From assembly GCA_964461845.1 (NCBI GenBank), contig CAYWVH010000001.1, forward strand, positions 183,487 through 247,486: a stretch of DNA of 64,000 bases. The letters are read 5' to 3'. The position numbers and the translations under genes were made by a program. The notes under the pieces are model-generated. The model was not told the DNA's origin. It did not search any database and saw only the letters and a program-made list of their open reading frames with translations. The DNA comes from an uncultured Wenzhouxiangella sp. GTDB taxonomy: Bacteria > Pseudomonadota > Gammaproteobacteria > Xanthomonadales > Wenzhouxiangellaceae. Positions 1 to 2,517 of the stretch are shown in pieces. The stretch's first letter is position 1. Every line of letters starts with the position of its first letter.

Positions 1-1056
1 ATTTGGTTCGTGATACTGGCTGGTTTTTCACCGATTCCTTTCAAAGCGATCACCATCGCCGCCGGTGCGCTGGGGATGCCTTGGGTTGGATTTATTTTAG
101 GTTCCATCATAGGCCGAGGTGCGCGGTTTTTTATGGTGGCAGGCATCATTTATGCGGGAGGCGAGCGGGCGGCTGAGCACTTGCGAAGCTGGGTCGATCG
201 CATCGGCTGGGCCACGGTCATGATTGCGCTGGTGGTCGCGGTGATTTGGTTGACGGGCTGCACCACAACAAGCACGCCCGCACCCGTGGTTCATCGAAGC
301 GGCATGATGGGTCAGGCGTCTGCTGTGGCGCCGGCCACGTACACCGTTCGATCGGGAGATTCTCTTTATTCCATCGCTTTTCGCTACGGTTTGGATTGGC
401 GTGAAGTGGCCGCTTGGAACCAGATCAAGGCGCCGTATATGATTCAAACGGGGGATCGCTTGAGGTTGCGGGCACCGATTGGGCCTCGCGCTTTGGCAGA
501 AAACACCACCACCCAAAGCCCAGTCAACTCAGCGCCCGTTGAGACCCAGCCTTTGAGGCCTGCGACTTCGGCACCCACGCGTCCTGCTGTGGTGGCGATG
601 CCTAGGCCCTCAGAAGCCACACCAGGCCCCACCATCAAAGCAGCGCCCAGTGCTGGCCAAGTGGCCACGCGTCGGGTTGAGGGGCTGGATTGGCGCTGGC
701 CTTTGGCTGGGCGGTTGGATCGGGTTTTCGATCCCTCTGCCACCAGGAAAGGGATCGGCATTACCGGTCAATCGGGCAATCAGATTGTGGCGGCAGCACC
801 CGGTGAGGTGGTTTACAGCGGAACAGCGCTGATTGGGTATGGTGAGCTCATTATCATTAAGCACTCCGATACCTTTTTGTCTGCCTATGGCTATAACCGG
901 AAACGTTTGGTTGAGGAGGGAATGCGCGTAGAGGCGGGTGCCCCCATCGCCGAGATCGGCCAAAACACCGAAGGCCAGTGGCAGCTCCATTTCGAGATCC
1001 GGAGAAACGGCGACCCCGTTGATCCACGGGCGTTCCTCCCCCCGACAATCCAGTAA
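1..1056 (+). CDS. nlpD: In-frame fusion: C-terminal part of a YqaA/DedA (VTT) family membrane protein + NlpD-type LysM/M23 lipoprotein (5' end outside window)
   Basis: Frame open from base 1 (IWFVILAGFSPIPFKAITIAAG, a YqaA-like motif), then a hydrophobic helix ending in lipobox LTGC (Cys codon 259-261), LysM (YTVRSGDSLYSIA), Pro/Ala/Thr linker, M23 domain (YGELIIIKH, LHFEIR). Confidence 0.85.
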   Translation: MWFVILAGFSPIPFKAITIAAGALGMPWVGFILGSIIGRGARFFMVAGIIYAGGERAAEHLRSWVDRIGWATVMIALVVAVIWLTGCTTTSTPAPVVHRSGMMGQASAVAPATYTVRSGDSLYSIAFRYGLDWREVAAWNQIKAPYMIQTGDRLRLRAPIGPRALAENTTTQSPVNSAPVETQPLRPATSAPTRPAVVAMPRPSEATPGPTIKAAPSAGQVATRRVEGLDWRWPLAGRLDRVFDPSATRKGIGITGQSGNQIVAAAPGEVVYSGTALIGYGELIIIKHSDTFLSAYGYNRKRLVEEGMRVEAGAPIAEIGQNTEGQWQLHFEIRRNGDPVDPRAFLPPTIQ

Positions 1057-1215
1057 CTTGCGACCCAAGCTAAAAGTGGGTTCTTCAAAAGCGCGCTATC
1101 TGTCGGTATCTCTTGACTTTTTCTGAAATTTTCGGGATCATGCCCCCAAGCGTCTGGCAAAAAGGTCCCTTCCGTGTCTGCAAGAAGGCTTGAATTACCA
1201 ACGAATTTAAGGTGG

Positions 1216-2517
1216 ATGCGCATCGCATTGGTCGCGCTGGCATGGGCTGTGGTCTCGCTTGCCCAAGCAGACGCCGTAGAGAACTTGCGGGTCTGGTCTG
1301 GCCCCGATGGCACCCGCGTGGTCTTCGACCTAGATTCTGCCGTTGAGTACAACATCATTGAGCTCGATGGGCCCGATCGCGTGGTGGTGGATCTAAAAGA
1401 CACCCGCCTGGGCGGTGATCTTAGTTTGGTCCCTGACCGCAACGACCTGATTACCTCCGTTCGTCATGGCATCCGCAATGGCGATGACCTTCGTGTGGTC
1501 TTCGATCTTAAAACCCGAGCCAAACCCACCAGCTTCTTGTTGCCACCTGCGGGCAAGTATGGCCATCGTTTGGTCATTGACCTTGTGTCAGACGATGTGG
1601 TGCCGGCAGCAGAGCGCATCCGTCAAGCCACCCAGGTGACGGTGAGCGGTGAGCGGCCAATGATCGTGGCCATTGATGCAGGCCATGGTGGAGAAGATCC
1701 AGGGGCCATCGGCCCAGCGGGCACGTTCGAAAAAACAGTCGTGCTGAAGATCGCCCAAGAGCTCAAACGTCAACTCGATGCCATGCCAGGAGTGCAGGGG
1801 GTGTTGCTTCGCACCGATGACTACTTCATTCCGTTAAGAGATCGGTACCAACGGGCACGTCAAGCGGGGGCTGATTTGTTTATCTCGATCCATGCGGATG
1901 CGTTCAGAGATTTTCGGGTACGAGGAAGCTCTGTGTATGTCTTATCCCAGCGGGGTGCATCCAGCGAGGCTGCGCGCATGTTGGCCAAGGCTGAGAACGA
2001 GGCTGACTTGATTGGTGGCGTGAAACTTGACCGAGGTGATGATGTTTTAAGCTCGGTGCTGTTGGATCTGTCCCAAAGCGCGACGATGGAATACAGCGCT
2101 CATGCCGCACAAAACCTACTCGATCAACTCGGCACAGTGGGGCGCCGTCACCGCAAGCAAGTCGAGAGTGCAAACTTTATGGTGCTTCGCTCGCCCGATG
2201 TGCCCAGCGTGTTGGTGGAGGTGGGGTTCATCTCCAACCCGCAGGATGAACAAAACCTCAACACGTCAGCACATCGGAAGAAAGTGGCCACAGCCTTGGC
2301 GCAAGGCATTCATCGGCATTTTATGCGCACCGCGCCTCAAGGGACTTGGTATGCCGCGAATCGATCTGAGCAGCAATACATCGTGCAACGGGGCGATACG
2401 CTCGGCATGATTGCCCAGCAACACCGTGTCAGCATCAATGATTTGCGTGCAAGCAATAACATCAATGGCGATCTCATCAAGCCAGGCGCTGTTTTAGTCA
2501 TTCCCGCCGGCTCATAA
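1216..2517 (+). CDS. N-acetylmuramoyl-L-alanine amidase (AMIN + Amidase_3 + C-terminal LysM), AmiB/AmiC type
   Basis: Signal peptide MRIALVALAWAVVSLAQA; AMIN (TRVVFDL, LRVVFDL); Zn-ligand motifs DAGHGG, EKT, SIHAD, VEVGF; LysM YIVQRGDTL; upstream of mutL as in amiB-mutL. Start ATG 1216 preferred over GTG 1174. Confidence 0.92.
   Translation: MRIALVALAWAVVSLAQADAVENLRVWSGPDGTRVVFDLDSAVEYNIIELDGPDRVVVDLKDTRLGGDLSLVPDRNDLITSVRHGIRNGDDLRVVFDLKTRAKPTSFLLPPAGKYGHRLVIDLVSDDVVPAAERIRQATQVTVSGERPMIVAIDAGHGGEDPGAIGPAGTFEKTVVLKIAQELKRQLDAMPGVQGVLLRTDDYFIPLRDRYQRARQAGADLFISIHADAFRDFRVRGSSVYVLSQRGASSEAARMLAKAENEADLIGGVKLDRGDDVLSSVLLDLSQSATMEYSAHAAQNLLDQLGTVGRRHRKQVESANFMVLRSPDVPSVLVEVGFISNPQDEQNLNTSAHRKKVATALAQGIHRHFMRTAPQGTWYAANRSEQQYIVQRGDTLGMIAQQHRVSINDLRASNNINGDLIKPGAVLVIPAGS

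What the first reader, a model, noticed from the sequence alone, without database searches (positions are those of the whole stretch)
1..1056. YqaA/DedA membrane protein fused in frame to NlpD through an internal lipobox: a possible LspA-processed polyprotein
Seen: there is no stop codon between the YqaA-like segment (GFSPIPFKAITIAAG) and the LysM/M23 protein. The last YqaA helix (DRIGWATVMIALVVAVIW) runs directly into LTGC (Cys at 259-261). The only nearby internal ATG (220) would give a signal peptide with no basic n-region. Known: yqaA and nlpD are usually separate neighbouring genes; NlpD is an outer-membrane lipoprotein that activates septal amidases; some DedA proteins recycle undecaprenyl phosphate or flip lipids. 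Inference: YqaA's terminal helix acts as NlpD's lipoprotein signal, so Lgt/LspA cleavage would release both proteins 1:1, or NlpD stays tethered in the inner membrane. Either would couple a DedA transporter to cell separation.
Basis: partly seen in the sequence, partly recalled or inferred. Interest (0 to 1): 0.75.

Follow-up and report, generated by a model that had tools for sequence, protein, structure and literature searches.

The report
YqaA membrane protein fused to NlpD
A real, long-conserved gene fusion joins a DedA-type inner-membrane protein (YqaA) to the cell-separation lipoprotein NlpD, so that YqaA's last membrane helix stands where NlpD's export signal used to be; the lipid-attachment cysteine is kept in every known fusion, which suggests, though it is not yet shown, that the cell cuts the fusion into two proteins.

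Summary
Window 1-1056 is the 3' 352 codons of one 459-codon ORF that begins 324 nt upstream of the window. It encodes a YqaA/DedA (VTT) domain, one last hydrophobic helix, the lipobox L-T-G-C (Cys at 259-261), LysM, and a degenerate M23 domain. It is not an assembly error: contigs from three separate studies cross the junction without indels.

The same fusion, in the same synteny (surE-pcm-fusion-amiC-mutL), occurs in a monophyletic Wenzhouxiangella-like clade. Members diverge down to 64% identity with saturated dS, and dN/dS is about 0.06 on the YqaA core and 0.03-0.14 on the dLytM domain. The sister taxa have separate, overlapping yqaA and nlpD genes with two hydrophobic segments. The fusion removed YqaA's tail and stop codon plus the n- and h-regions of NlpD's signal peptide.

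Fusions arose independently at least three times, and about nine times by parsimony. All 35 fused proteins keep the cysteine, a small residue at -1, and exactly one uncharged segment before it. No in-frame start codon is conserved upstream.

The best reading is a polyprotein processed by Lgt and LspA. Cleavage itself is untested. The fusion is rare: about 10 clusters at 50% identity among 1.84 billion representatives. No paper in the searchable library mentions YqaA and NlpD together.

The parts
1..1056 (+). 3' 352 codons plus stop of the 459-codon yqaA::nlpD fusion ORF. The ORF starts 324 nt upstream of the window at a GTG that abuts the pcm stop codon.
   Evidence: The gene was called as one 459-aa product with VTT_dom+LysM+Peptidase_M23 in two assemblies.
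4..153 (+). C-terminal part of the YqaA/DedA (VTT) core: second re-entrant loop (GFSPIPFK) and the GRGARFF helix (TM3).
   Evidence: Pfam VTT_dom positions 72-122 of 123. Invariant P119, P121, K123, R147 and F151 across 26 fusions.
157..201 (+). Predicted cytoplasmic loop GGERAAEHLRSWVDR before the last helix. It contains the in-frame TTG at 181-183.
   Evidence: Charge profile over 76 stand-alone YqaA proteins. TTG is replaced by CTG in L113 and L088. SD duplex energy is -5.8 kcal/mol against -8.1 for the true start.
202..258 (+). Last transmembrane helix of YqaA (IGWATVMIALVVAVIWLTG, 19 uncharged residues), here doubling as the h-region of NlpD's lipoprotein signal.
   Evidence: It is homologous to the C-terminal helix of stand-alone YqaA in W. 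marina. The AlphaFold2 helix ends at residue 194, which is window codon 86.
250..261 (+). Lipobox L-T-G-C. The Cys (259-261) is residue 195 of the full protein.
   Evidence: Cys is present in 35/35 fused proteins. Position -1 is G/S/A in 35/35 and position -3 is L or M in 31/35. 33/35 match the PROSITE-type lipobox core pattern.
262..333 (+). Disordered Thr/Pro-rich tether after the Cys (TTTSTPAPVVHRSG...).
   Evidence: pLDDT is below 50 for residues 196-216. The PAPV motif is shared with stand-alone NlpD directly after its Cys.
340..468 (+). LysM peptidoglycan-binding domain.
   Evidence: Pfam PF01476, E 5e-13.
484..615 (+). Low-complexity Pro/Ala/Thr linker; the least conserved part of the protein.
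   Evidence: pLDDT is below 50 for residues 270-313. Amino-acid identity is 22-45% and dN/dS 0.24-0.75 within the clade.
745..1026 (+). Degenerate LytM (M23) domain of the amidase-activator type.
   Evidence: Pfam PF01551, E 3e-23. The best solved relatives are the EnvC and DipM dLytM domains. The domain has KGIGI, SAYGYN and QLHFE where active M23 enzymes carry their metal ligands (ligand positions from own knowledge).
1216..2517 (+). Downstream amiC-like gene (AMIN + Amidase_3 + LysM), the presumed target of NlpD. An alternative start is GTG at 1174.
   Evidence: The same neighbour is present in every member of the fused clade examined.

Best explanation
The locus encodes a natural two-in-one precursor.

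Shown:
- One 459-codon ORF, translated from a GTG coupled to the pcm stop codon.
- It makes a YqaA-type DedA membrane protein whose own last helix runs straight into the lipobox L-T-G-C of NlpD.

Inferred:
- The helix inserts N-in/C-out and so carries the LysM-dLytM part across the inner membrane.
- Lgt attaches diacylglycerol to Cys195.
- LspA cuts between Gly194 and Cys195.
- This leaves a YqaA of essentially native length (194 aa against 191 aa in Wenzhouxiangella marina) in the inner membrane.
- It also releases a normal lipoprotein NlpD. There is no Asp at +2, so NlpD is expected to go to the outer membrane.
- There NlpD activates the AmiC amidase encoded next door.

Origin: the fusion arose by a deletion in an ancestral overlapping yqaA/nlpD pair. 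The deletion removed YqaA's short tail and stop codon together with the n- and h-regions of NlpD's signal peptide.
For: 1. The fusion is real and old.
- The open frame is the same in independent assemblies and in contigs of three studies, with no indel.
- Twelve or more 90%-identity clusters, down to 64% identity, form one clade with identical synteny.
- dS is saturated. dN/dS is about 0.06 for the YqaA core and 0.03-0.14 for dLytM.

2. The ancestral state is known.
- W. marina and a Wenzhouxiangellaceae MAG have separate genes with two hydrophobic segments and a 10-nt overlap.

3. The lipobox is retained.
- Cys in 35/35, G/S/A at -1 in 35/35, no Asp at +2.
- 33/35 fit the lipobox core pattern.
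- The composition resembles that of 63 stand-alone NlpD signals.

4. Helix parity is kept.
- 34 of the 35 fused proteins have exactly one uncharged run (14-24 aa) between the predicted cytoplasmic loop and the Cys. This holds whether the run derives from YqaA TM4 or from NlpD's own signal. P0126 has no loop or TM4 and is treated under evidence against.
- In 14 of 54 unfused pairs a single stop codon separates the genes in the same frame, so two-helix fusions would be easy to make.

5. The fusion is recurrent.
- Fused clades are nested among unfused relatives. Fitch parsimony gives at least 9 changes.
- Clade a is 69% identical to its nearest unfused relative and 54% to the nearest other fused clade. 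Clade c4 is 74% against 57%. Clade c2 is 64% against 56%.

6. No internal start is conserved.
- TTG 181 is CTG in L113 and L088.
- L088, L006 and L118 have no ATG, GTG or TTG before the hydrophobic run.
- The SD pairing of TTG 181 and ATG 220 is not distinguishable from background, whereas the true start has the best site.

7. The topology fits.
- The N-terminus and the loop after re-entrant loop 1 are basic, and the middle loop is acidic.
- A Rhodanobacter YqaA in the same pcm-yqaA-M23 context is predicted N-in/C-out (PMC8679861).
- The DedA core has two re-entrant loops, each followed by one crossing (bioRxiv 10.1101/2020.12.18.423352).

8. E. coli NlpD held in the inner membrane (S27D) cannot support cell separation (PMC5533458). 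An uncleaved tether would therefore be expected to be non-functional if the biology is similar.
Against: - No biochemical evidence for lipidation or cleavage exists for any member.
- I found no documented case of Lgt/LspA acting on a lipobox about 195 residues into a polytopic protein.
- The hydrophobic run before the Cys is 19 residues in this clade, against a median of 13 in stand-alone NlpD signals. It is not known whether LspA accepts this length.
- The AlphaFold2 output gives no membrane orientation, and DSSP merges TM3, the loop and TM4 into one helix. Topology therefore rests on charge bias, literature and the fusion logic itself.
- One fused protein (P0126) joins the lipobox directly after the TM3-like helix, which does not fit the topology model.
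- Internal initiation at TTG 181 in this particular genome cannot be excluded.
Confidence: 0.58

Rival explanations
1. Uncleaved tether. The fusion stays in one piece, so the LysM-dLytM module is permanently anchored to the inner membrane through YqaA. It might additionally be lipidated on Cys195 without LspA cleavage. This would put amidase activation at the site of the DedA protein.
For: - The full-length polypeptide is necessarily synthesised: there is one ORF and both halves are under purifying selection.
- A 19-residue, TM-length helix precedes the Cys, longer than typical lipoprotein h-regions.
- Two long disordered linkers could let the dLytM domain reach the wall from the inner membrane.
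Against: - If a helix anchor sufficed, nothing would preserve the Cys and the small -1 residue. Both are kept in 35/35 proteins from several independent fusions.
- In E. coli, NlpD retained in the inner membrane fails to activate cell separation (PMC5533458).
- No feature known to block LspA after Lgt modification is apparent.
Confidence: 0.2
2. Two products by internal initiation. NlpD is mainly made from an in-frame internal start (TTG 181 in the window) as an ordinary pre-lipoprotein. The read-through fusion is a tolerated by-product of losing the yqaA stop codon.
For: - TTG 181 would give MRSWVDRIGWATVMIALVVAVIWLTGC, a textbook lipoprotein signal with Cys at position 27 and Arg at positions 2 and 7.
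- TTG is present at that codon in five of seven lineages of the clade.
- One unrelated fusion (L025) clearly keeps NlpD's own ATG and whole signal peptide.
Against: - The codon is CTG in L113 and L088.
- L088 (same clade), L006 and L118 have no canonical start before the hydrophobic run.
- SD pairing at TTG 181 (-5.8 kcal/mol) lies within the background, where 26% of codons reach -5 or lower. ATG 220 (-4.0) is at the background mean. The true start has -8.1.
- Independent initiation would not explain why all conserved fusions have deleted exactly one of the two hydrophobic segments.
Confidence: 0.17
3. Artefact or decaying pseudogene. A sequencing or assembly indel, or a recent frameshift, merged two genes that are really separate.
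For: - Most relatives have separate genes.
- The fusion is rare: about 10 clusters at 50% identity among 79,502 hits with E <= 1e-10.
Against: - Contigs from three studies show no indels.
- The identical junction is present in lineages down to 64% identity with saturated dS and low dN/dS in both halves.
- The junction is a clean in-frame deletion of about 20 codons, not a 1-nt slip.
Confidence: 0.02

Closest known systems
Stand-alone yqaA-nlpD gene pair of Wenzhouxiangella marina (CP012154) and many other Gammaproteobacteria (surE-pcm-yqaA-nlpD)
   Same: - Same two proteins, same order, same upstream genes, with amiC-mutL downstream.
- The YqaA core is up to 69% identical to that of the closest unfused relative. 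Stand-alone Wenzhouxiangella NlpDs are 50-56% identical.
- The genes already overlap by 10 nt, which implies translational coupling.
   Different: - There, YqaA ends 3-6 residues after its last helix, and NlpD has its own start codon, basic n-region and 13-17-residue h-region.
- Here those elements are deleted, and one helix serves both proteins.
E. coli NlpD (outer-membrane lipoprotein, LysM + dLytM, activator of AmiC)
   Same: - LysM plus a degenerate M23 domain.
- Lipobox followed by a disordered linker.
- surE-pcm context and a neighbouring or cognate AmiC-type amidase (PMC5533458).
   Different: - The score is below NCBIfam's NlpD equivalog cut-off (163 against 311 bits).
- rpoS is not downstream in this clade.
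- The lipobox lies at residue 192-195 of a polytopic protein instead of within the first 26 residues.
YqaA subfamily of the DedA superfamily (for example Rhodanobacter sp. B2A1Ga4 YqaA, linked to indium resistance; PMC8679861)
   Same: - Minimal DedA domain with two re-entrant loops.
- Located between pcm and an M23 peptidase gene.
- Predicted cytoplasmic N-terminus and external C-terminus.
   Different: - That protein is a separate 202-aa polypeptide.
- The biochemical function of YqaA proteins is unknown, so no functional equivalence can be claimed.
FbcH cytochrome b-c1 polyprotein of Bradyrhizobium japonicum (own knowledge; no paper found in the searchable library)
   Same: A polytopic inner-membrane protein is fused to a periplasm-facing partner through an internal signal sequence, and the precursor is cut after insertion to give two subunits.
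   Different: - There the cut is attributed to type I signal peptidase and produces two subunits of one known complex.
- Here the site is a type II (lipoprotein) signal, and a physical YqaA-NlpD complex is not known.
Lipoproteins that are also polytopic membrane proteins (Gram-positive YidC/SpoIIIJ, CtaC/QoxA, E. coli CyoA; own knowledge)
   Same: They show that Lgt and LspA can act on proteins that also contain further transmembrane helices.
   Different: In those proteins the lipobox is N-terminal and the helices follow it. Here the order is reversed, so the 'signal peptide' that would be left behind is a whole functional membrane protein.

Membership tests
DedA superfamily, YqaA-type (Pfam VTT_dom PF09335) | Match to the VTT/DedA domain model | tested here: met
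   The window fragment alone scores 22 bits, below the 33.9 cut-off, because only the last third of the domain is in the window. The full 459-aa product and all fused relatives carry precomputed PF09335 hits.
DedA superfamily, YqaA-type (Pfam VTT_dom PF09335) | Two proline-tipped re-entrant loops with conserved membrane-embedded acidic and basic residues | tested here: met
   FFPIPPD and GFSPIPFK motifs are present. E32, P37, P39, P119, P121, K123 and R147 are invariant and D41 and R150 nearly invariant in 26 fusions. The motif definition comes from PMC8679861 and bioRxiv 10.1101/2020.12.18.423352.
DedA superfamily, YqaA-type (Pfam VTT_dom PF09335) | N-in / C-out topology of the minimal YqaA form | tested here: inconclusive
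   Charge bias over 76 homologues fits, and a literature prediction agrees. No orientation can be read from the AlphaFold2 output, and P0126 does not fit.
NlpD-type amidase activator | LysM domain followed by an M23/LytM domain | tested here: met
   PF01476 with E 5e-13 and PF01551 with E 3e-23.
NlpD-type amidase activator | Degenerate LytM domain (metal ligands lost), as in NlpD, EnvC and DipM | tested here: met
   The best solved relatives are the EnvC and DipM dLytM domains. The aligned motifs are KGIGI, SAYGYN and QLHFE against EnvC's KGMVI, SLYGYN and SLYFE. The ligand positions of active M23 enzymes are from own knowledge.
NlpD-type amidase activator | Reaches NCBIfam equivalog NF008123 (NlpD) cut-off | tested here: not met
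   163-165 bits against a cut-off of 311. ActS (NF040883) scores 157-158 against 375. It is an NlpD-like family member, not a curated equivalog.
NlpD-type amidase activator | Activates an AmiC-type amidase at the septum | not testable with these tools
   Context only: an AMIN+Amidase_3+LysM gene lies directly downstream.
Bacterial lipoprotein (Lgt/LspA/Lnt substrate) | Lipobox core pattern ending in Cys after an uncharged hydrophobic run | tested here: met
   The junction is LVVAVIWLTGC. 33/35 fused proteins match the pattern and 35/35 have [GSA]-C. The pattern was recalled from PROSITE PS51257.
Bacterial lipoprotein (Lgt/LspA/Lnt substrate) | Cys within about 15-35 residues of the N-terminus, with K/R in the first seven | tested here: not met
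   The Cys is residue 195 of the ORF. The rule would be met only for a product started at TTG 181, and that start is not conserved.
Bacterial lipoprotein (Lgt/LspA/Lnt substrate) | Diacylglyceryl modification and globomycin-sensitive cleavage | not testable with these tools
   This needs labelling and immunoblot experiments.
Membrane polyprotein cut at an internal signal sequence (FbcH type) | One ORF, an internal N-in/C-out helix followed by a signal-peptidase site, and two mature products | tested here: inconclusive
   The ORF, the helix and the site are shown. The two mature products are inferred only.

The most novel reading that the evidence does not exclude
Lgt and LspA process a lipobox buried about 195 residues inside a polytopic membrane protein. 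One translation product would then yield a DedA-family protein and an outer-membrane amidase activator in strict 1:1 ratio. Repeated independent evolution of this arrangement would reflect a working partnership between YqaA and NlpD in septal wall remodelling. If so, it would give the first functional handle on the YqaA subfamily.
Probability: 0.3. Interest if true: 0.8.

Novelty: new variant of a known kind. Interest (0 to 1): 0.6.

Why it matters
1. If the precursor is cut, type II signal peptidase can use the last helix of a functional multi-spanning protein as its 'signal peptide'. That would be a bacterial membrane polyprotein of a kind I could not find described. Annotation rules that require the lipobox near the N-terminus would miss such lipoproteins.

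2. The fusions act as natural reporter fusions. A peptidoglycan-binding module after the last YqaA helix argues that the C-terminus of YqaA-type DedA proteins faces the periplasm.

3. YqaA has no established function. Its near-constant position next to nlpD, together with recurrent fusion to it, gives a concrete and testable lead towards cell-envelope or cell-separation biology.

If the fusion turns out to be only a tolerated deletion between overlapping genes, it still shows that a native transmembrane helix can replace a lipoprotein signal.

Tried and rejected
- **Assembly error or frameshift.** Rejected.
- **ATG 220 as a conserved start.** Rejected. The Met occurs only in this lineage; other members of the clade have A, G or V there.
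- **First regex screen of the 80 GTDB loci.** It suggested many single-frame matches. Inspection showed these are separate genes in the same frame, split by one stop codon, each with its own NlpD signal peptide. Only L025 is fused there, and it is a different, two-helix form with its own ATG.
- **L089.** It was at first mis-scored as unfused because its contig ends inside the gene. This was corrected before the parsimony count.
- **AlphaFold2.** It gave good domain models but no membrane orientation, and it merged TM3, the loop and TM4 into one DSSP helix. It was used only to place the helix end and the disordered linkers.
- **RNA evidence.** No RNA run holds the sequence.
- **Literature.** No paper contains YqaA together with NlpD, or 'internal lipobox'. 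Papers with 'lipobox' plus 'polyprotein', or DedA plus NlpD, were irrelevant by title and abstract. The FbcH search returned nothing usable.
- **A Tat link through AmiC** (DedA mutants of E. coli fail to export Tat-dependent amidases). The 'SARRLEL' motif at GTG 1174 is not conserved in relatives, so this was dropped.
- **A second profile search of the 5.8-billion-protein set.** It found no fused clusters beyond the 28 already known.
Full report
**1. What is in the sequence**

Frame 1 of window 1-1056 is open from the first base to TAA at 1054-1056. The translation matches three Pfam models:
- the last third of the VTT/DedA domain (aa 2-51);
- LysM (aa 114-156, E 5e-13);
- Peptidase_M23 (aa 249-342, E 3e-23).

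The window starts inside the gene. Looking up the neighbouring amidase protein retrieved two longer assemblies: an ENA scaffold of 364 kb (L002) and a Logan contig (L003). In both, one 459-aa gene with VTT_dom+LysM+Peptidase_M23 is called.

L002 differs from the window by one amino acid, so it is an independent sample of the same population. The ORF starts at a GTG that directly follows the pcm stop codon. This start has the best Shine-Dalgarno pairing of any in-frame start codon in the first 200 codons of the ORF, which run up to the lipobox Cys (-8.1 kcal/mol).

Window codon n corresponds to residue n+108.

One omission: an in-frame TTG at 181 would give a signal peptide with a basic n-region (MRSWVDR...).

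**2. It is not an artefact**

Logan contigs from three separate studies (marine, aquaculture and marine plankton metagenomes) cross positions 190-262. They differ only by substitutions; no insertion, deletion or joint was found.

**3. Relatives**

A search of 5.8 billion proteins found 28 clusters with the same three-domain or two-domain fused architecture. An exhaustive profile search of 1.84 billion 50%-identity representatives found about 10 fused clusters among 79,502 hits with E <= 1e-10. That search added seven more sequences. A second profile search added none. The fusion is therefore rare.

Fourteen clusters (64-100% identity) belong to one group. On a neighbour-joining tree of the YqaA core, the members sampled form a single clade. 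Its sisters are Wenzhouxiangella marina and a Wenzhouxiangellaceae MAG, both unfused.

Every member examined has the synteny sspB / DUF3301 / smr / surE / pcm / fusion / amiC / mutL. W. marina has the same order with separate genes.

Within the clade, synonymous sites are saturated (dS > 1.4 wherever it could be estimated for the YqaA core and dLytM). dN/dS is about 0.06 for the YqaA core and 0.03-0.14 for the dLytM domain. Both halves are therefore functional, and the fusion has been kept for a long time.

**4. How the fusion was made**

In W. marina, YqaA (191 aa) ends ...REWVDLIGWSVLIIAAVAGLVWWWL*. NlpD starts 10 nt before that stop codon, in another frame, as VAVGRLLSGLFATLLIAGGLTAC-APWQPAPV.

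The window protein reads ...RSWVDRIGWATVMIALVVAVIW-LTGC-TTTSTPAPV. The fusion thus keeps YqaA's last helix and NlpD's lipobox. It has lost YqaA's tail and stop codon, together with NlpD's start codon, n-region and h-region (about 20 codons).

**5. The pattern across all fusions**

All 35 fused proteins have the following features:
- a Cys at the junction;
- G (30), S (3) or A (2) at position -1;
- L or M at position -3 in 31 of 35;
- no Asp at +2;
- exactly one uncharged run of 14-24 residues before the Cys.

Thirty-three of the 35 fit the lipobox core pattern. The composition matches that of 63 stand-alone NlpD signals. The run is longer, though: 19 residues in this clade against a median of 13.

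The junctions fall into different types:
- In most, YqaA's own last helix (after the V-D-R-I-G-W motif) abuts the lipobox.
- In another clade (for example L006, context surE-fusion-rpoS), YqaA's last helix is gone. NlpD's own n- and h-regions (SFRKKHIAAICLAMMTLMMGC) take its place, with no start codon.

Each fused clade's nearest relative is an unfused gene rather than another fused clade. This is clear for three clades:

| Clade | Identity to nearest unfused | Identity to nearest other fused clade |
|---|---|---|
| Window clade (a) | 69% | 54% |
| c4 | 74% | 57% |
| c2 | 64% | 56% |

Fitch parsimony on the tree needs at least nine changes. The fusion has therefore arisen at least three times, and probably more.

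This recurrence matters for interpretation. In 14 of 54 unfused pairs the two genes lie in the same frame, separated by a single stop codon. Two-helix fusions would be one point mutation away. Yet the only such case found (L025, a 2-kb contig) still has NlpD's own ATG and whole signal peptide.

Conserved fusions always keep the number of membrane crossings compatible with a periplasmic NlpD, and they always keep the lipidation site.

**6. Internal initiation**

- The TTG at 181 is CTG in two lineages of the same clade (L113, L088).
- L088, L006 and L118 have no ATG, GTG or TTG between the cytoplasmic loop and the hydrophobic run.
- ATG 220 is unique to this lineage.
- SD pairing at TTG 181 (-5.8 kcal/mol) and ATG 220 (-4.0) lies within the background for codons of this ORF (mean -3.4, sd 2.6).

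Internal initiation cannot be excluded for this genome. It is not a conserved feature, and it would not explain the parity rule.

**7. Topology**

Over 76 stand-alone YqaA homologues:
- the N-terminus is basic (4.1 K+R against 1.3 D+E);
- the short loop after the first re-entrant loop is basic;
- the middle loop is acidic (4.1 D+E against 1.6 K+R).

In the experimentally supported DedA core model, each of the two re-entrant loops is followed by one crossing (bioRxiv 10.1101/2020.12.18.423352). That gives three crossings and a periplasmic C-terminus.

A YqaA of Rhodanobacter, encoded between pcm and an M23 gene, was likewise predicted N-in/C-out (PMC8679861).

AlphaFold2 (mean pLDDT 78) ends the last helix exactly at Gly194. 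It shows disordered stretches at 196-216 and 270-313 and confident LysM and dLytM folds. It gives no orientation.

P0126, a single sequence, attaches the lipobox right after the TM3-like helix. It does not fit this model, and I cannot explain it.

**8. What the NlpD half is**

The closest solved structures are the degenerate LytM domains of EnvC and DipM, which are amidase activators rather than peptidases. The motifs KGIGI, SAYGYN and QLHFE align with EnvC's KGMVI, SLYGYN and SLYFE.

NCBIfam's NlpD and ActS equivalog models are the top hits but fall below their cut-offs. The next gene encodes an AMIN+Amidase_3+LysM amidase.

In E. coli, NlpD must reach the outer membrane. An inner-membrane-retained S27D variant cannot support cell separation (PMC5533458).

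**9. Mechanism proposed**

Shown: one ORF; two selected halves; one helix; an invariant lipobox.

Inferred:
- The last YqaA helix inserts N-in/C-out and exports the NlpD part.
- Lgt lipidates Cys195.
- LspA cuts before it.
- YqaA is left at about its native length.
- NlpD is N-acylated, sorted to the outer membrane, and activates AmiC.

I put this at about 0.58. The rivals are an uncleaved inner-membrane tether (about 0.2), NlpD made mainly by internal initiation (about 0.17), and an artefact (about 0.02).

**10. Comparison with what is known**

Both halves are ordinary members of known families. What is unusual is the position of a type II signal at the end of a polytopic protein, and its strict retention across independent fusions.

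- The nearest conceptual precedent I know is the FbcH cytochrome b-c1 polyprotein of Bradyrhizobium, cut at an internal type I signal (own knowledge).
- Lipoproteins with downstream helices (YidC/SpoIIIJ, CyoA, QoxA) show the reverse order.
- I found no paper that mentions YqaA together with NlpD, or an internal lipobox.
- Databases hold such proteins only under generic names such as 'peptidoglycan DD-metalloendopeptidase family protein' or 'lipoprotein NlpD'.

**11. Caveat on meaning**

yqaA and nlpD are neighbours in 54 of 68 sampled unfused loci. That sample is biased towards loci resembling the fusion. The genes often overlap, and both junction partners are Leu/Ala/Val-rich helices.

Recurrent fusion may therefore owe as much to mutational opportunity and tolerance as to selection for coupling. 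The claim that the fusion couples a DedA transporter to cell separation remains a hypothesis.

**Verdict**

This is a real and conserved fusion, and a new variant built from known parts. It is of moderate to high interest because it makes an unusual processing event and the function of YqaA directly testable.

Noticed in passing
L025:2-1348 (Ectothiorhodospiraceae MAG, 2-kb contig): This is a different kind of yqaA-nlpD fusion. YqaA's last helix is followed by AKQS and then a complete NlpD signal peptide with its own ATG (MKIIKVNFILFICSLIIAC), giving two hydrophobic segments. It looks like simple stop-codon loss, or an error, with independent initiation preserved.
   Followed up: partly
P0126 (358 aa, one Logan contig of 86 kb): In this fused protein the lipobox LSGC follows the RYFLVAGFAFFF helix directly. 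The cytoplasmic loop and last helix are missing. This does not fit the topology that explains the other 34 fusions.
   Followed up: no
window 1174-2517: The downstream amidase gene encodes AMIN + Amidase_3 + a C-terminal LysM. From GTG 1174 the N-terminus reads MSARRLEL..., which resembles a twin-arginine motif. The RR is not conserved in relatives (L111 has KR; others lack it), so Tat export is not supported. ATG 1216 was the start called in the ENA and Logan assemblies.
   Followed up: partly
L002:6440-6470 (324 nt upstream of the window): The pcm stop codon TAA is immediately followed by the GTG start of the fusion, with GAGGGAG 8 nt upstream. This suggests translational coupling of pcm and the fusion gene.
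   Followed up: partly
L005:3972-4421 (W. marina): W. marina has an Rrf2-family regulator gene between nlpD and amiC. It is absent from all members of the fused clade examined.
   Followed up: no
P0015 (NCBI, 'Wenzhouxiangella sp.' TPA MAG, 270 aa): A sequence of the fused clade is annotated as a stand-alone NlpD starting inside the last YqaA helix (MVVALLWLTGC...). This shows that annotation pipelines can split or truncate this gene.
   Followed up: no
window 1-64000: The whole 64-kb window contains no tRNA gene (ARAGORN) and no Rfam family at gathering threshold.
   Followed up: yes
window 1057-1215: The 117-159 nt spacer between the fusion gene and amiC (depending on which amiC start is used) contains a sigma-70-like TTGACT-17 nt-GATCAT. 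amiC may therefore have its own promoter. This was seen by eye only.
   Followed up: no
L115-L117, L006 (low-GC gammaproteobacterial contigs): The other fused clades sit in a surE-fusion-rpoS(-htpG) context without pcm. One contig also carries an ankyrin-repeat gene, which hints at Legionellales-like intracellular bacteria.
   Followed up: no
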